Origin: a virus
Taxonomy: Monodnaviria; Loebvirae; Hofneiviricota; Faserviricetes; Tubulavirales; Inoviridae
Direction: 5' to 3' (one strand)
Virus record (IMG/VR): IMGVR_UViG_2734482785_000001
Coordinates: 1 to 7,445 of that record
Length of the DNA: 7,445 bases
This document shows positions 2 through 7,445 of the stretch, one piece after another. Every line of letters starts with the position of its first letter. Position 1 is the first letter of the stretch. Position numbers and translations under genes: made by a program. The notes beneath the pieces were generated by a model. It was not told the DNA's origin. It saw only the letters and a list, made by a program, of their open reading frames with translations, and did no database searches.

Positions 2-103
2 CATTGGTACGCATAATGTAGTATGCGTTATGTTGAAAAGGCCGCTGCTAGACTTTCATCCGGCAGCGGCCTTTTTATACATAACGCCATTGTGCGTACC
101 AAA
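2..103. repeat. Long imperfect inverted repeat (hairpin) with dif-like arms enclosing a terminator stem
   Basis: Read directly: 4-18 (TTGGTACGCATAATG) is complementary to 88-102 with one T/G mismatch; 25-33 (GCGTTATGT) is complementary to 79-87; 19-24 (TAGTAT) is an unpaired bulge. 6-16 GGTACGCATAA resembles the E. coli dif XerC arm GGTGCGCATAA and 28-38 TTATGTTGAAA resembles the XerD arm TTATGTTAAAT. Confidence 0.6.
36..77. terminator. Bidirectional rho-independent terminator (9-bp GC-rich stem, A-run 5-prime, T-run 3-prime)
   Basis: Stem 40-48 GGCCGCTGC pairs with 63-71 GCAGCGGCC, loop 49-62, flanked by AAAA (36-39) and TTTTT (72-76). It lies just downstream of the minus-strand ORF ending at 108. 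Confidence 0.75.
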
Positions 104-107
104 TTTT

Positions 108-509
108 TTATTTTTCAGATTTGAATAGAGGATCTACTTTGTAGATTAAAGGAACTATTTCATAATTCATTCTTGGGAATGTCATTATCCTTATCATCAT
201 TGCTGCTTTTCTTTCATCATCGAATATGAGTGCATCCCTTAAATTTCTTGTCCATTCAGCTTTTTCACCCCCTTCAAAGTCATGCGTCAAACCCTTGAAA
301 TATAAAGCTTTTTTCTTTTTTCTTATAGTGTATGCTTTAGCTTCATTCATGACGATGTATTGAAAGTCCAGTTCTCCAATAGGGCATTCTATTAATGCTT
401 CTGTCTCTTTGATTTTTTCAACTATTCTTTCTGATAATTGTTCGCAGTCTAAGCAGTTGGCTTTTTCAATAACAACTATTTTTTTCCTTTTTCCATCTTT
501 TTTAAGCAT
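108..509 (-). CDS. Hypothetical protein (133 aa), function unknown; second gene of divergent accessory module
   Basis: Intact ATG-initiated ORF with no competing ORF, followed in its own orientation by the terminator at 36-77. Lys/Glu-rich; I recognise no family motif. Confidence 0.55.
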   Translation of the reverse strand: MLKKDGKRKKIVVIEKANCLDCEQLSERIVEKIKETEALIECPIGELDFQYIVMNEAKAYTIRKKKKALYFKGLTHDFEGGEKAEWTRNLRDALIFDDERKAAMMIRIMTFPRMNYEIVPLIYKVDPLFKSEK

Positions 510-540
510 GGTCTTTTTTCTTCATTTGGTTAAAATTTGC

Positions 541-596
541 ACCGCGAAGCGGTTCGGGGTTCTGTGACACCCGAACTTTGGTGCGGTTTCCCGCAC
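541..596. other. Cluster of three short GC-rich stem-loops in an AT-rich intergenic spacer
   Basis: H1: 541-545 ACCGC / 549-553 GCGGT, loop GAA. H2: 552-558 GTTCGGG / 570-576 CCCGAAC, 11-nt loop. H3: 581-586 GTGCGG / 591-596 CCGCAC, loop TTTC, followed on the plus strand by TTATTTTTT (597-605). Confidence 0.5.
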
Positions 597-905
597 TTAT
601 TTTTTGTATAGTCCGTTTTTTTCGTTCTCTTCATAAGCTTTATTCACTCGATCATGCCGCCTTTTTTCTGCTTCTTCGTGCGCTTCGTAGAATCGAGTGT
701 GATTCTCTGCCTCTAATGCTTTTCTTTTTATGTTGCTTACCACATCTTTAGCAGCATCTTTTGCATAATTATCAATGAGATAATTAACTATATCCGTCCA
801 CGCTATAGATGTTCCTGCTTCTTGGCTTGCATCGATAGCCAATCGTTCCATTTTGATTTTACGCTCGGCAGTAATTGCCATCGTAGTTCGCTTGAATAGT
901 GCCAT
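597..905 (-). CDS. Putative ribbon-helix-helix (RHH)-like DNA-binding regulator (102 aa), divergent from gII
   Basis: ORF on the minus strand whose start faces the gII start across a 72-bp spacer. The N-terminal region (KIKMERLAIDASQEAG-TS-IAWTDIVNYLI) fits a beta-strand/helix/G-x-S-T turn/helix pattern seen in Arc/CopG/ParD-type RHH proteins. Start codon choice (M1 vs M9) is uncertain. Confidence 0.5.
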   Translation of the reverse strand: MALFKRTTMAITAERKIKMERLAIDASQEAGTSIAWTDIVNYLIDNYAKDAAKDVVSNIKRKALEAENHTRFYEAHEEAEKRRHDRVNKAYEENEKNGLYKK

Positions 906-977
906 CTCATTTCTAACCTTTGGGTGGAATTAGGGTAGGTATCTTATCGTAATGCATGTGCTTGCGTATCTGCATGC
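906..977. promoter_or_regulatory. Divergent control region between the RHH gene and gII, with palindromic ATGCATGC-type repeats continuing into the gII 5-prime end
   Basis: 72-bp spacer between divergent starts. ATGCATG at 952-958 and TGCATGC at 971-977, with further copies at 980-987 and 1024-1032; GTATCT repeated at about 936, 966 and 989. Confidence 0.4.
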
Positions 978-2165
978 TTGCATGCATCTGTATCTGTGTG
1001 CTATAAATTTTTTATTGATATACATGCATGCAGGTATAAGGGCTTTGTTGTGTTCTACGATTGGTTGAGTATTGAACAGGATTTTGGCTACCAATTACCC
1101 ATCCTTTCAGATGTGGCTTATCAGCGTATTCATCTTGATAGCGGTGAAGCCAGTGCTTTATCTCAACCAACCTTCCAGCATCGTGGTTCTTTCTGTGATG
1201 TTGTCTCGATCTCGATCCGTGGTTCAGTGTTAAAAATGACTGGAAACCCTTCTCGCTGGGGACGTCTTGATAATCTCTTTGGCCTTCCGACTGTAGATAC
1301 TTGTGTCATGGTATTTAATCAGATTCTAACTGAACTGAAATTACCTTTATTTACCAAGTGTACAAAGTTAATGCCTGGACAATCGAAAGAGAATGAAAAA
1401 GCCCATTTGATTACTGATGGTGCTTTAATTAAAGAACTGCATATAACATCAAACAAATCAGTAGGGAAGGGGAATGAGGATGATTATATATCAGGTCTTT
1501 CTACTCAACCTTACAGGAATAGTATTCCACGGTTGCATTCCAATGGGAAATCTGTTGACTGGCTTTCAAAAAAAGGCAATGTCAATCTTATATACCCAAC
1601 AGTATATAACAAAGCTCATGAGCTTGAGTTGCATAGTCTTGCGAAAATCAAAAATAAATTCCCAGATGATTCTAAAGAATTTAATTATATAATGAATGTT
1701 ATTAATTACTGCAAGGACAACGGCATTGTCAGGTTTGAACAGAAATTAAAGTCTCGTTTTCTTCAAAAAAAATCTCTGTGCTATTGGGGACTTTCTGATT
1801 ATTCTTTGTTAAATAAGTTACATTCTGAATTTCTTGAGCTTGATGAAAAGTTATCGGTGAATGCTATGGACTTTGAAACTATTAGTGAACATCTTATTAG
1901 TCGTGGTGTTGTTGACACTACTCGTGCTGCCAATACTACAGCCATGTATGCAATTCAATGGTTTCATGGCCATTCTTTTGATTTAAATAAAAGGCAAGTA
2001 AAACAACATCGAGCAAGATTAAGAATGATAGGGATTGATATTGCTCAAAAATGTAATGTTTCCAAATTTTCTCCTGTTGTTGTGAAACAAACAAGAGAAA
2101 TAACCGTTTCGGATTGTGTTATTCCTTCTTGGTATATAAAGCCATCTTATTTACGTGCAGCTTAA
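978..2165 (+). CDS. II: Gene II-type rolling-circle replication initiation protein (pII family)
   Basis: 395-aa ORF. Recalled Ff pII-like motifs: N-terminal FIDxxxC, NPSRWGRLDNLFG (cf. ASPAKVLQGHNVFG) and VRFEQKLKSRFL (cf. VRFEARIKTRYL). Position and size match Ff gII. The start at 978 is TTG with no clear SD; alternatives are GTG 996 or GTG 1050 (the latter preceded by AAGGG). Confidence 0.85.
   Translation: MHASVSVCYKFFIDIHACRYKGFVVFYDWLSIEQDFGYQLPILSDVAYQRIHLDSGEASALSQPTFQHRGSFCDVVSISIRGSVLKMTGNPSRWGRLDNLFGLPTVDTCVMVFNQILTELKLPLFTKCTKLMPGQSKENEKAHLITDGALIKELHITSNKSVGKGNEDDYISGLSTQPYRNSIPRLHSNGKSVDWLSKKGNVNLIYPTVYNKAHELELHSLAKIKNKFPDDSKEFNYIMNVINYCKDNGIVRFEQKLKSRFLQKKSLCYWGLSDYSLLNKLHSEFLELDEKLSVNAMDFETISEHLISRGVVDTTRAANTTAMYAIQWFHGHSFDLNKRQVKQHRARLRMIGIDIAQKCNVSKFSPVVVKQTREITVSDCVIPSWYIKPSYLRAA
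1866..2165 (+). CDS. X: Candidate gene X-like in-frame internal product (C-terminal 99 aa of pII)
   Basis: In-frame ATG at 1866 (Met297 of 395) preceded by GGTGA about 6 nt upstream; proportionally analogous to Ff pX, which starts at Met300 of 410. Inference by analogy only. Confidence 0.3.
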   Translation: MDFETISEHLISRGVVDTTRAANTTAMYAIQWFHGHSFDLNKRQVKQHRARLRMIGIDIAQKCNVSKFSPVVVKQTREITVSDCVIPSWYIKPSYLRAA

Positions 2166-2178
2166 TATTAGGTGTATT

Positions 2179-2457: not shown

Positions 2458-2685
2458 ATGGAATCTCATGATAAAGTTATTATTGCCTCTATTTGTGATA
2501 TTAAACCCAGTGGTGACTGTAAGGAAGTCAAGTTAACTTTTTCTGAGATTCCATACCAGCAATTCTCTGATATTGATTATTCAACATTTGCTCAATATTG
2601 GGGGGTTGCTTTTACTTCGGTTGTTGCTTTGTATTTATTTTCACATTGCATCAGCTTGATTATCAAGTTAATACGAAATGCATAA
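2458..2685 (+). CDS. Small protein with C-terminal hydrophobic helix in the gVII/gIX position (possible minor coat protein)
   Basis: 75-aa ORF between gV and gVIII; the C-terminal WGVAFTSVVALYLFSHCISLIIKL is a single predicted TM helix. Ff phages have two roughly 32-aa genes here, so the assignment is uncertain. Confidence 0.4.
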   Translation: MESHDKVIIASICDIKPSGDCKEVKLTFSEIPYQQFSDIDYSTFAQYWGVAFTSVVALYLFSHCISLIIKLIRNA

Positions 2686-4801: not shown

Positions 4802-5839
4802 ATGCCTATTTCTGCTTATGTTGGTTCTTTAGGTAGTGGTAAATCATACGAGGTTGTTTCTAGTGTTATTGTACCTGCTTGTTCTTCTGGGCGTCGTGTT
4901 GTTACTAATATTTACGGTATAAATAAAGATAAAATTCATGCTTATTGCATGAAAAAATCAAAATCGGGGAAAGATATATCCTTAGGTGATGTTATTTATG
5001 TTTCTAATGATGATATCAAAGCTGATGATTTTTTCCCATATAAAGATTCTCGTCCTGAAGATACATTTTGTCAGTATGGAGATTTGATTGTTATTGATGA
5101 ATCCTGGCGCATTTGGGATAGTGACAAATCCATTTGTGAGAATCATCGTTCATTTATTGCAGAGCATCGTCATTTTACTAATATTGAAACTGGTGTTTGT
5201 TGTGACCTTGTTGTTATAAATCAGGAGGTTTCTTCTTTACCTCGTTTTATTAAAGCAAGGTTAGACACTACTTTTAGAATGCAAAAGCATATTGCTATTG
5301 GCATGAAGAGTCGTTATCGTGTCGATGTTTTTAATGGTTCTAAACTTTATAAGTCAAACAAGATTACAAGTTATCAGAGGAAATATAATCCAGATATATT
5401 TCCTTTGTATAAATCATATGAGAATGGGGATGGCAAAGAACTTACTGTTGATAATCGGGCTAGCATTTTAGGCAAGAAAAGTTTGTATTTTGTTGTTCTT
5501 GCTATGATTCTCATTTTCATATTTAGCATTGGTTATCTTTATAGGTTTTTTAATGGTGGTTTGGTCAAGAGTGATGCTTCTGACTTGCCGCCTCAGGACT
5601 CTAATTTCCGTTCTGTTAATTTTAATTCAGTTCCTGAAATTCCAAATACACCTAAATTATCTTCAACTTGGCGTATCGTTGGAAAACTTGAAAGAGAAGG
5701 GCGTAGTTATGTGATAATTACAAATAATTCAGGTCTTGTCCGTATGGTTCCTGCTTCTACCTTTAATTATCAAGGTGTTTTACTTACAGGAATTGTTGAT
5801 GGTGAGCTTGTTACTTTTTATTCAGGTGGTGACAAATGA
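4802..5839 (+). CDS. I: Gene I-type assembly ATPase (Zot-family P-loop NTPase)
   Basis: Walker A GSLGSGKS about 10 residues from the N-terminus (cf. M13 GKLGSGKT), Walker B LIVIDESW, and an internal TM segment LYFVVLAMILIFIFSIGYLY. ATG 4802 is preferred over the ORF-track TTG at 4790, which overlaps the gVI stop. Stop overlaps the gIV start (ATGA at 5836-5839). Confidence 0.9.
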   Translation: MPISAYVGSLGSGKSYEVVSSVIVPACSSGRRVVTNIYGINKDKIHAYCMKKSKSGKDISLGDVIYVSNDDIKADDFFPYKDSRPEDTFCQYGDLIVIDESWRIWDSDKSICENHRSFIAEHRHFTNIETGVCCDLVVINQEVSSLPRFIKARLDTTFRMQKHIAIGMKSRYRVDVFNGSKLYKSNKITSYQRKYNPDIFPLYKSYENGDGKELTVDNRASILGKKSLYFVVLAMILIFIFSIGYLYRFFNGGLVKSDASDLPPQDSNFRSVNFNSVPEIPNTPKLSSTWRIVGKLEREGRSYVIITNNSGLVRMVPASTFNYQGVLLTGIVDGELVTFYSGGDK

Positions 5840-7026: not shown

Positions 7027-7029
7027 GAA

Positions 7030-7071
7030 TTCTGTCCGATCCCCGCAGCTTTGCGAGGAGAACGGACAGAA
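7030..7071 (+). other. Imperfect hairpin immediately after the gIV stop (candidate terminator or packaging-signal-like element)
   Basis: Stem 7030-7038 TTCTGTCCG pairs with 7063-7071 CGGACAGAA around a 24-nt partly self-complementary loop. No T-run directly follows; AGATGA occurs at 7021-7026 and 7071-7076. Confidence 0.45.
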
Positions 7072-7129
7072 GATGAATCTTGGTTTATGGCATTTTTTAA
7101 GCAATATGACGATGTTTGTTTTATTGTTT

Positions 7130-7445
7130 TTATGCCGTCAGGCATGGAAGGCGGCATGATGATGTTTCATGTTGTGCCTTTGGTTGTCCGCCGATACCAG
7201 GGAGATATGTCATAGTGCGCGGAACAGCGCAACGCGCCCCCTGCAAAGCCGGGTTTTCATTGCAGTTATCGAGACGAACGGCGCAAGACGTGAGTCGTCC
7301 AGGCGGCGTTAATGCTTGTTGATGGAATTGATCGCTTTCATCGGGCATGACAAAATCTAAAAGCCGGTGACGGGGTTTCGTTAACTGTGGTGGTTTGTTT
7401 CTCCTGGTATCCGGCAAGCCTAAATTCCTCTTTACGGGCTGATGC
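7130..7445. other. GC-rich (about 55%) flank with no convincing ORF; host flank or structured phage non-coding region
   Basis: Hand count of 7201-7320 gives about 55-58% GC against about 32% in a gIV sample (6001-6060). The only ORFs (7116..7322 plus, 7130..7417 minus) overlap on opposite strands and have Pro/Arg/Cys-biased composition. Confidence 0.4.

What the first reader, a model, noticed from the sequence alone, without database searches (positions are those of the whole stretch)
108..905. Divergent two-gene module (RHH-like regulator plus unrecognised 133-aa protein) in an Ff-type phage
Ff-class phages (M13, IKe, I2-2) encode all genes on one strand with a non-coding intergenic region before gII. 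Here that position holds two minus-strand genes with their own terminator. A divergent regulator next to the replication gene is how temperate inoviruses such as CTXphi (rstR/rstA) are organised. The 133-aa protein matches no family I recognise and could be cargo: an immunity or superinfection-exclusion factor, a toxin partner of the RHH protein, or an anti-defence factor.
Basis: partly seen in the sequence, partly recalled or inferred. Interest (0 to 1): 0.75.

Follow-up and report, generated by a model that had tools for sequence, protein, structure and literature searches.

The report
Repressor-plus-cargo arm of temperate inovirus
The two backward-facing genes are real: they form the lysogeny and cargo arm of a filamentous phage that integrates at the bacterial dif site, an arrangement already known from CTXphi, Ypfphi and UPphi, and only the role of the 133-aa protein remains open.

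Summary
Two minus-strand genes (108-509, 133 aa; 597-905, 102 aa) lie before gII in a circular If1/UPphi-like inovirus, and both have conserved homologues.

The 102-aa protein sits where CTXphi has rstR. It looks ParG-like (ribbon-helix-helix, RHH), but that is not proven. It faces a control region in which all the genome's GCATGC/ATGCATG palindromes cluster over a promoter-like site for gII. In a 99%-identical phage this gene and its control region are replaced by an HTH_3 regulator with different repeats, which suggests an immunity-module swap.

The "intergenic" functions are still there, interleaved with the genes. Bases 535-607 form a three-hairpin element that is probably the complementary-strand origin.

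The 133-aa protein belongs to a small family found almost only in inoviruses. The proteins are soluble and no curated family or solved fold matches them. The gene fills the first position of a variable cargo slot between that origin and attP. It occurs with unrelated regulators, so a toxin-antitoxin pair is unlikely. My best guess is a lysogen-expressed exclusion or defence function, and this is inferred.

Verdict: a new member of a known kind, of moderate interest.

The parts
4..102 (+). attP(+): a long imperfect ssDNA hairpin formed by two inverted dif-like sites, of the CTXphi type.
   Evidence: Folded as ssDNA: -38.2 kcal/mol, z = -11.9, with a 6-nt bulge at 19-24 between the XerC-arm and XerD-arm duplexes. 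Relatives carry the same pair of sites and lie next to a perfect E. coli dif.
6..38 (+). dif-like site 1: GGTACGCATAA-TGTAGTATGCG-TTATGTTGAAA
   Evidence: Pattern scan. The XerC arm matches E. coli dif at 10 of 11 bases and the XerD arm at 9 of 11 (read from the sequence).
75..103 (-). dif-like site 2, inverted partner: GGTACGCACAATGGCGTTATGTATAAA
   Evidence: Read from the sequence. It aligns with the 27-nt sites of relatives and plasmids and pairs with site 1 in the fold.
108..509 (-). Gene for the 133-aa protein. It is a member of a small inovirus family and is the first gene of the cargo slot.
   Evidence: AF2 model with a 10-sequence alignment: pLDDT 78.
535..607 (+). Three-hairpin element, probably the complementary-strand origin (ssi/sso). 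hp1 is 541-553 and contains the GCGAAGC mini-hairpin at 544-550. hp2 is 554-574 and is invariant. hp3 is 581-596 and is followed by a T-run.
   Evidence: 91% of cells are paired against about 40% in the slid controls, and 4 of 6 hp3 pairs show compensatory changes. It is also present in a non-coding region of an unrelated 2.7-kb rolling-circle plasmid and in 434 plasmids. For the mini-hairpin at priming sites see PMC13037366.
597..905 (-). Gene for the 102-aa regulator. The N-terminal ~60 aa form a conserved ParG/RHH-like domain; the C-terminal ~40 aa form a charged tail found in only some members.
   Evidence: There is an unannotated homologue in If1 at 5119..5322(-).
906..1049 (.). Divergent control region. 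GCATGC and ATGCATG palindromes lie at 952-958, 972-977, 980-987 and 1023-1031. A promoter-like site for gII reads TTGCAT (978-983), 18-nt spacer, TATAAA (1002-1007).
   Evidence: Every GCATGC (3 of 3) and ATGCATG (4 of 4) match in the 7445-nt genome falls within 952-1031. The promoter was read from the sequence and was not flagged by the scan.
1050..2165 (+). gII replication gene. The likely start is GTG 1050, as annotated in the relatives.
   Evidence: G2P_X_C 2.9e-24 and phrog_702 2.7e-105. RefSeq homologues are 371 aa.

Best explanation
Bases 1-1050 are the leftward lysogeny and cargo arm of a temperate inovirus that integrates at dif using XerCD. Its replication module is of the If1/UPphi type.

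The 102-aa protein occupies the rstR position. It is a small DNA-binding repressor, probably a ribbon-helix-helix dimer of the ParG/Arc kind. It probably binds the clustered GCATGC/ATGCATG palindromes that overlap the -35 box and the transcription start region of the gII promoter. That would hold down replication and virion production and give immunity. The gene and its operators move as a cassette, and a near-identical phage carries an HTH_3 regulator with different repeats in its place.

Leftward transcription probably runs on through the three-hairpin complementary-strand origin into the 133-aa gene, and ends at the attP hairpin. On the leftward RNA, that origin is not shaped like a terminator.

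The 133-aa protein is a soluble alpha/beta protein from a small family found almost only in inoviruses. It fills the first position of a hypervariable cargo slot bounded by the origin and attP. I take it to be a lysogen-expressed conflict factor, most likely exclusion of superinfecting phages or defence of the lysogen, and not a toxin paired with the regulator.

Shown here: the genes, their conservation, the attP and hairpin structures, the operator-like clustering, the cassette swap and the variability of the slot.

Inferred: repressor activity, co-transcription, origin activity and the role of the 133-aa protein.
For: Architecture:
- The core genes are all on the plus strand.
- The window is circular.
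- attP is two inverted dif-like sites folding at -38.2 kcal/mol, z -11.9.
- Relatives are tandem prophages beside a perfect dif and hipBA.

Regulator:
- Its family is conserved in If1, Klebsiella, Yersinia, Dickeya, Xenorhabdus and Providencia.
- ParG is the only PDB match to the family profile (E 0.042 and 0.016), and 9 of 22 members give weak ParG Pfam hits.
- All GCATGC and ATGCATG sites in the genome cluster at 952-1031.
- Phages with related regulators carry related TGnnnnCA-type palindromes, and the HTH_3 variant carries unrelated repeats.
- In L003, window 593-1050 is replaced while the flanks are 94-99% identical.

133-aa family:
- It has 8 distinct relatives among 1.84 billion representative proteins.
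- W86, N89, R91, A93, P120, L121, I122 and P127 are invariant.
- In every inovirus locus with enough context (L003, L005, L006, L007-9, L012, L014, L022/23) it lies just after the regulator, whatever the regulator type (RHH or HTH) or Rep type (G2P or Rep_trans). In L003, L005, L006, L007-9, L022/23 and weakly L014 the hairpin element lies between the two genes; none was detected in L012.
- No transmembrane segment; most members are acidic.

Slot variability:
- The same two boundaries flank a 64-aa gene (L002), PADLOC defence candidates on plasmids (PDC-S32, PDC-S15, PDC-M50A with a ThsB-like TIR protein), and additional cargo beside a family member (Ntox44 plus a second gene in L007-9).
- Hypervariable regions of Vibrio inoviruses are reported as defence-gene hubs (PMC12715192).
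Against: - No RHH family reaches its curated threshold (ParG 14.3 bits against a cut-off of 21.4), and no structure was predicted for the regulator.
- The scan found no sigma-70 promoter on the minus strand, so the leftward promoter and co-transcription are unproven.
- Unlike typical swappable cargo, the family is retained across diverse inoviruses. That fits a phage-specific life-cycle role at least as well.
- The window's copy is basic (pI 8.9) while the relatives are acidic.
Confidence: 0.55

Rival explanations
1. The 133-aa protein is a phage life-cycle factor and not cargo. It could help establish the replicative form, act at the adjacent single-strand origin or attP hairpin, or modulate the switch between lysogeny and virion production.
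For: The family is found almost only in inoviruses. In every locus with enough context it holds the same position after the regulator, in most of them directly after the hairpin element. It persists across phages with different Rep and regulator types, and further variable cargo is sometimes added after it. It is the first gene to become double-stranded if complementary-strand synthesis starts at 535-607 (inference from the geometry).
Against: Relatives that lack it are still integrated in tandem at dif and carry the same hairpin element and attP (L002/L016). If1, a free-living phage, lacks it too. Only 5 of 5426 complete E. coli genomes carry a close copy of the family variants searched. An antirepressor should co-vary with its repressor, yet the same protein is paired with both RHH and HTH_3 regulators. 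There is no DUF3653/XafT match.
Confidence: 0.2
2. The 133-aa protein is an anti-defence protein that helps the incoming phage escape host immunity. It would be analogous to the anti-restriction genes in the leading regions of conjugative plasmids.
Against: The gene has no detectable promoter of its own. The three short hairpins look like a primase-type or PriA-type priming site and not an RNA-polymerase ssDNA promoter, so early transcription from ssDNA is unlikely (inference). The fold matches are too weak to use. The window's own copy is basic.
Confidence: 0.13
3. The two genes are a type II toxin-antitoxin pair, with the RHH protein as antitoxin and the 133-aa protein as toxin.
For: RHH antitoxins encoded upstream of their toxins are common (established knowledge). 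The gene order and strand fit this.
Against: The genes are 87 nt apart, with a conserved cis element between them. The pairing is not kept: the same 133-aa gene follows an HTH_3 protein in L003 and another putative HTH protein (judged by eye; no Pfam hit) in L014, and RHH members occur without it in If1 and L002. No toxin family or fold matches. The RHH gene faces operator-like repeats at the gII promoter, as a phage repressor would.
Confidence: 0.06

Closest known systems
CTXphi rstR / ig-2 / rstA module with its folded ssDNA attP(+)
   Same: The repressor gene is divergent from the replication gene. The repressor and its operators are exchanged as a cassette between otherwise near-identical phages. 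attP is formed by two inverted dif-like sites that fold in the plus strand. Prophages sit in tandem at dif.
   Different: The regulator is not an RstR homologue or an HTH protein; it is probably RHH. A single-strand origin and a cargo gene lie between the regulator and attP. The phage also has its own secretin gene, gIV.
Ypfphi/CUS-1 (YPO2271-YPO2273) and UPphi (h3-h5) enterobacterial dif-integrating inoviruses
   Same: Reverse-oriented ORFs of unknown function lie between the dif site and gII, with a regulator next to gII and variable genes further out (PMC4266046; PMC7307601). An E. coli prophage with IKe-like structural genes, possibly of the UPphi group, shares the window's 522-2170 at 92.9% identity.
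   Different: The outer gene here (133 aa) is a different family. tblastn finds it in no deposited phage genome and no PLSDB plasmid. The structural genes also differ from the IKe-like set of that prophage.
ParG / Arc / CopG ribbon-helix-helix repressors
   Same: The size is right, and by eye the sequence fits a strand-helix-helix layout. Helix B is similar to ParG residues 53-74. The gene sits next to clustered short palindromes.
   Different: All scores are below the curated thresholds, no structure was obtained, and this subgroup has an extra charged tail of about 40 aa.
Phage-encoded hypervariable regions (pHVRs) of Vibrio inoviruses
   Same: An attP-adjacent slot has sharp conserved boundaries and interchangeable accessory or defence-type genes (PMC12715192).
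   Different: In Vibrio the slot lies between zot and xafT. Here it lies between the complementary-strand origin and attP, on the regulator side, and there is no XafT.
Primase-type single-strand initiation sites (phage G4 origin, plasmid ssi, single-strand origins of rolling-circle plasmids)
   Same: Three hairpins lie on the packaged strand, and one contains the GCGAAGC mini-hairpin. The element is shared with conjugative plasmids and with a rolling-circle plasmid.
   Different: It has no sequence identity to any described ssi that I could find and no Rfam match. Priming activity is untested.

Membership tests
Ribbon-helix-helix (Arc/MetJ/CopG/ParG) DNA-binding proteins: 102-aa protein | A significant profile match to an RHH family | tested here: inconclusive
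   Pfam ParG scores 14.3 bits against a cut-off of 21.4. 9 of 22 family members hit ParG, best E 0.0041. The family profile against PDB finds only ParG 1p94 (apart from one chance-level eIF5B match at E 1.2), at E 0.042 and 0.016.
Ribbon-helix-helix (Arc/MetJ/CopG/ParG) DNA-binding proteins: 102-aa protein | An N-terminal beta-strand followed by two helices, forming an intertwined dimer | not tested
The conserved pattern KRTTMAIT / AERKLKLERLAIDAS / WTDIVNYLIDNYAKD fits strand-helix-helix by eye only.
rstR-type inovirus immunity repressor (functional class) | Divergent from the replication gene, with repeated operator-like sites over its promoter | tested here: met
   The gene ends its leader at 905 and gII starts at 1050. 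All the genome's GCATGC and ATGCATG sites lie at 952-1031, overlapping TTGCAT-N18-TATAAA.
rstR-type inovirus immunity repressor (functional class) | The repressor and its operators are exchanged as a unit between near-identical phages (heteroimmunity cassette) | tested here: met
   L003 replaces window 593-1050 with an HTH_3 gene and different repeats, while the flanks are 99% and 94% identical.
rstR-type inovirus immunity repressor (functional class) | Sequence homology to RstR (Cro/CI-type HTH) | tested here: not met
   No HTH family matches the 102-aa protein.
rstR-type inovirus immunity repressor (functional class) | Represses the rep promoter and confers immunity | not testable with these tools
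   This needs binding, reporter and superinfection assays.
Type II toxin-antitoxin pair | The two partners consistently occur together | tested here: not met
   The 133-aa family is paired with RHH, HTH_3, or another putative HTH regulator. RHH members occur with no 133-family partner.
Type II toxin-antitoxin pair | The toxin belongs to a known toxin family or fold | tested here: not met
CTXphi-type element integrating by Xer recombination (folded ssDNA attP) | Two inverted dif-like sites that fold into a hairpin with an unpaired central region | tested here: met
   Sites at 6-38(+) and 75-103(-). The fold is -38.2 kcal/mol, z -11.9, with a 6-nt bulge.
CTXphi-type element integrating by Xer recombination (folded ssDNA attP) | Found integrated at the host dif site, often in tandem | tested here: met
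   This is met for relatives: L002, L005, L008, L016 and L022/23 lie beside a perfect dif, hipBA or ydeT. The window-type phage itself was seen only as a circular or tandem junction.
Known anti-phage defence or Xer-activation (XafT/DUF3653) proteins: 133-aa protein | A profile match to a PADLOC model or to DUF3653 | tested here: not met
   No hit for the window protein or its homologues.
Single-strand initiation site / complementary-strand origin (535-607) | Conserved hairpins on the packaged strand, shared by replicons with ssDNA intermediates | tested here: met
   91% of cells are paired against about 40% in the slid controls, with compensatory changes in hp3. Present in inoviruses, in 389 conjugative plasmids and in a Rep_1-type (judged from an HUH-like HPHFH motif) rolling-circle plasmid. 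Contains the GCGAAGC mini-hairpin.
Single-strand initiation site / complementary-strand origin (535-607) | Primes complementary-strand synthesis | not testable with these tools
   This needs an assay that rescues an M13 phage lacking its minus-strand origin, or in vitro priming.

The most novel reading that the evidence does not exclude
The 133-aa family is a new, inovirus-specific conflict protein, acting in exclusion of rival filamentous phages or in counter-defence. It sits in a cargo slot bounded by the complementary-strand origin and a dif-like site. That slot would be a shared exchange point between enterobacterial inoviruses and plasmid-borne modules flanked by dif-like sites, which carry candidate defence genes (PDC-S32, PDC-S15, PDC-M50A with a TIR protein). 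Filamentous phages and Xer recombination would then be moving defence cargo onto hundreds of conjugative plasmids.
Probability: 0.25. Interest if true: 0.6.

Novelty: new member of a known kind. Interest (0 to 1): 0.4.

Why it matters
The result shows that Ff-like coliphages of the If1 group are, or derive from, temperate phages that integrate at dif in the CTXphi manner. Their "intergenic region" is a compact mosaic of attP, a cargo gene, a complementary-strand origin, a repressor and operators. It corrects the If1 reference annotation, which labels a conserved regulator gene as intergenic. It also provides two testable items:
- a swappable pair of immunity cassettes (RHH-like and HTH_3);
- a small uncharacterised protein family that inoviruses keep next to their attachment site.

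The observation with wider reach is that the same origin and dif-like boundaries flank candidate defence genes on hundreds of enterobacterial plasmids. The module itself, however, is of a type already described for CTXphi, Ypfphi/CUS-1 and UPphi.

Tried and rejected
- **Single-sequence AF2 of the 133-aa protein:** it failed (pLDDT 36). Only the model built from a 10-sequence alignment was usable.
- **Word-indexed protein searches:** they missed the family. It was found by blastp against relatives' loci and by the exhaustive HMMER run.
- **A 2811-aa hit (P0034):** this is a cadherin-repeat protein that matches through repeated weak beta-hairpin similarity, so I rejected it as spurious.
- **Profile of the 133-aa family against PDB:** only chance-level hits such as parvalbumin and Ku80.
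- **Rfam:** nothing for the hairpin element or anywhere else in the window.
- **Full-text search for the hp2 sequence:** no paper.
- **PADLOC and NCBIfam:** nothing for either protein.
- **Expression of the 133-aa gene from an ssDNA promoter on the incoming strand:** I considered this. The hairpins are too short to mimic -35/-10 duplexes, and they resemble primase-type or PriA-type sites, so I kept it only as a low-probability rival.
- **XafT-like Xer activation:** rejected. There is no DUF3653 match, the attP is of the CTXphi type, and relatives without the gene are integrated.
- **The plus-strand promoter-like site at 409-438, antisense to the 133-aa gene:** not significant. One site was found against 3.5 expected in shuffles.
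Full report
**What the window is.** The 7445-base window is a filamentous phage genome with the core inovirus genes on the plus strand. gII runs from about 1050 to 2165 (G2P_X_C 2.9e-24, phrog_702 2.7e-105). It is followed by gV, a 75-aa ORF, gVIII, gIII, gVI (DUF2523), gI (Zot) and gIV (secretin). The only deposited phage with DNA similarity is If1, at 76% over 535-2101. An E. coli contig (L003) joins window 7445 to window 1 at 99-99.8% identity. The window is therefore a circular genome or one unit of a tandem array, and the finding lies inside the phage.

**The observation.** Both minus-strand ORFs are present as described: 108-509 (133 aa) and 597-905 (102 aa). In 2000 shuffles of bases 1-1050, none gave both an ORF of at least 133 aa and one of at least 102 aa. 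Both have conserved homologues (below).

**The phage is temperate, in the CTXphi manner.**
- Bases 6-38 (plus strand) and about 75-103 (minus strand) are inverted dif-like sites.
- As single-stranded DNA, bases 4-102 fold into one long hairpin (-38.2 kcal/mol, z -11.9). A 6-nt bulge separates the XerC-arm duplex from the XerD-arm duplex.
It may terminate transcription as well.
- Relatives carry the same pair of sites and sit as tandem prophages next to a perfect E. coli dif, beside hipBA or ydeT.
- Reverse-oriented ORFs of unknown function next to dif have been described for UPphi (PMC7307601). In Ypfphi/CUS-1 two variable ORFs and an RstR-like gene precede gII (PMC4266046).

**The 102-aa protein.**
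- It matches phrog_2503, of unknown function (5e-25), and 24 database proteins from Klebsiella, Yersinia, Dickeya, Xenorhabdus and Providencia.
- Only the N-terminal ~60 residues are conserved.
- If1 has an unannotated homologue, 70% identical, at 5119-5322(-), inside what its record calls the "major intergenic region".
- The only structural lead is ParG, an RHH protein, and it is below threshold: Pfam 14.3 bits against a cut-off of 21.4; 9 of 22 members hit ParG weakly; the family profile against PDB gives E 0.042 and 0.016. No structure was predicted for it. RHH is likely but not shown.

**The control region (906-1049).**
- It holds every GCATGC (3 of 3) and every ATGCATG (4 of 4) match in the genome, all within 952-1031.
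- These overlap a promoter-like TTGCAT-N18-TATAAA (978-1007), which I read from the sequence.
- Phages with related regulators carry related TGnnnnCA-type palindromes at the same place.
- In L003, window 593-1050 is replaced by a 162-aa HTH_3 protein (2e-8) with different repeats, while the flanks stay 94-99% identical.
- This behaves like the rstR/ig-2 immunity cassette of CTXphi.

**The spacer between the two genes is not empty.**
- Bases 535-607 form three hairpins on the packaged strand.
- Across 10 sequences, 91% of cells are paired, against about 40% in the slid controls. Hairpin 2 is invariant in sequence, and 4 of 6 pairs of hairpin 3 show compensatory changes.
- The core is 91-100% identical in If1, in all the E. 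coli relatives and in 434 plasmids, of which 389 are conjugative. It also lies in a non-coding stretch of a 2.7-kb rolling-circle plasmid whose Rep is unrelated to gII.
- Hairpin 1 contains GCGAAGC, the very stable mini-hairpin reported at ssDNA priming sites (PMC13037366).
- I read the element as the complementary-strand origin.
- On the plus strand, hairpin 3 and its T-run look like a terminator. On the leftward RNA they do not, so read-through from the regulator gene into the 133-aa gene is plausible.

**The 133-aa protein.**
- No Pfam, NCBIfam or PADLOC family matches it. The only lead is a weak match to phrog_7738 (6 of 12 members, best E 7.9e-4).
- Word-indexed searches found only near-identical E. 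coli copies.
- Homologues at 35-39% identity sit at the same position in related E. coli inoviruses. An exhaustive HMMER search of 1.84 billion representatives found 8 distinct relatives.
- W86, N89, R91, A93, P120, L121, I122 and P127 are invariant, giving the motifs WTxNLRDA and VPLIYQVDP.
- In every inovirus locus with enough context, the gene lies just after the regulator. This holds whether the regulator is RHH-like (L005, L006, L007-9, L012, L022/23) or HTH (L003, L014), and whether Rep is of the G2P or the Rep_trans type. The hairpin element lies between the two genes in most of these loci, is only weakly detectable in L014 and was not detected in L012.
- Regulator-family members also occur without it (If1; L002/L016, which have a 64-aa gene instead).
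- Close copies of the family variants searched are rare: 5 of 5426 complete E. coli genomes carry one. tblastn with the window's protein finds it in no deposited phage and no PLSDB plasmid.
- With a 10-sequence alignment, AF2 gives a usable model (pLDDT 78, pTM 0.56): a beta-hairpin and two helices, followed by a conserved three-strand, helix, strand domain.
- The proteins are soluble and mostly acidic, but the window's copy has pI 8.9.

**The cargo slot.** The sequence between the 27-nt dif-like site and the hairpin element has sharp, conserved boundaries and varied content:

| Locus | Content of the slot |
|---|---|
| Window, L003, L005, L006, L022/23 | 133-aa family gene |
| L002 / L016 | 64-aa gene |
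| L007-9 | 133-family gene, then an Ntox44 toxin and a second gene |
| L010 | Hcp gene next to a family member |
| pRK100-type IncF plasmids | PADLOC candidate PDC-S32 |
| pE25a | PDC-S15 (FRG domain) |
| RCS46_p, pTCM3e1 | PDC-M50A with a ThsB-like TIR protein |

Two of the plasmid modules are flanked by inverted dif-like sites. Hypervariable, defence-rich regions next to attP have been reported for Vibrio inoviruses (PMC12715192).

**Interpretation.** The module is the lysogeny and cargo arm of a temperate inovirus. The 102-aa protein is the rstR-position repressor. The 133-aa gene is the first gene of the cargo slot and is probably co-transcribed with the repressor. A toxin-antitoxin reading is disfavoured by the 87-nt spacer with its cis element, by the lack of fixed pairing and by the absence of any toxin match. 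A requirement for integration or for origin function is disfavoured because relatives without the gene integrate and keep both cis elements. My best guess is a lysogen-expressed exclusion or defence role. It rests on position and on the variability of the slot, and I hold it at about one in three. A phage-specific life-cycle role and an anti-defence role remain open.

**Novelty.** The architecture is a known kind (CTXphi, Ypfphi/CUS-1, UPphi). What is new: a probable RHH regulator replaces the HTH type, the 133-aa family is uncharacterised, and the cis elements have now been mapped.

Noticed in passing
window 535-607; L015 3501-3556; L018 2501-2579; L017 2501-2570; L004 4001-4070; L019 1662-1700: A three-hairpin element whose core is invariant (91-100% identity over about 40-56 nt). 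It is shared by these inoviruses, by 434 plasmids (389 conjugative), by a 2.7-kb rolling-circle plasmid, and at 93% over 41 nt by Alteromonas phage phiAFP1. It is probably a single-strand replication origin and contains the GCGAAGC mini-hairpin. It has no Rfam match and I found no literature on it.
   Followed up: partly
L015 2476-5216; L018 1492-2842; L017 1042-2570; L004 2542-4070: On enterobacterial plasmids the same 27-nt dif-like site and hairpin element bracket candidate defence genes: PDC-S32/STM4504 family, PDC-S15/FRG domain, and PDC-M50A with a ThsB-like TIR protein. Two of these modules are flanked by inverted dif-like sites. This suggests inovirus-derived or Xer-mobilised modules.
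   Followed up: partly
L001 (If1, NC_001954) 4834-7463: If1's annotated 'major intergenic region' contains an unannotated 67-aa homologue of the 102-aa regulator (5119-5322, minus strand) and the hairpin element. An IS200/IS605 element is inserted between that gene and gII: a Y1 transposase at 5388-5831(-), and 'ORF348', which is a TnpB (OrfB_IS605 plus Cas12f1-like TNB).
   Followed up: yes
window 593-1050 compared with L003 563-1256: A phage 99% identical on the cargo side and 94% identical in gII carries a 162-aa HTH_3 regulator and different repeats in place of the 102-aa gene and its control region. The left breakpoint lies between hairpins 2 and 3 of the origin-like element.
   Followed up: yes
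L007/L008/L009 274-1084 and 8655-9465: A related tandem inovirus prophage carries, after its 133-family gene, an Ntox44 toxin-domain protein (130 aa, 1.3e-15) with an overlapping 146-aa gene that has a hydrophobic N-terminus. The second gene may encode an immunity protein.
   Followed up: no
L010/L011 116-1949: One 133-family member (P0033) lies directly after a type VI secretion Hcp gene (4.3e-32) and two unknown genes. A dif-like site pair follows it, and then chromosomal genes. The contig ends upstream, so whether the whole stretch is an inovirus is unknown.
   Followed up: no
window 7027-7445, continuing across the junction to about 14: A GC-rich stretch of about 420 nt (GC up to 0.49) after gIV has overlapping ORFs on both strands. 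Pipelines annotate it inconsistently in relatives: 82 aa on the minus strand in L005, 50 aa on the plus strand in L006. One minus-strand ORF runs across the circular junction into attP. It has no Pfam match and is probably non-coding, perhaps holding the packaging signal or plus-strand origin.
   Followed up: no
window 2458-2685: A 75-aa ORF with a hydrophobic C-terminus (phrog_3679, 5.8e-16, unknown function) occupies the position where Ff phages have gVII and gIX. No separate small gVII/gIX ORFs were recognised.
   Followed up: no
window 522-2170 compared with L002/L016: The hairpin element, the regulator and gII are shared at 92.9% identity with an E. coli prophage whose structural genes are of a different, IKe-like type (G7P_2, Phage_Coat_A, DUF5455). 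This shows modular exchange of the regulation and replication block.
   Followed up: partly
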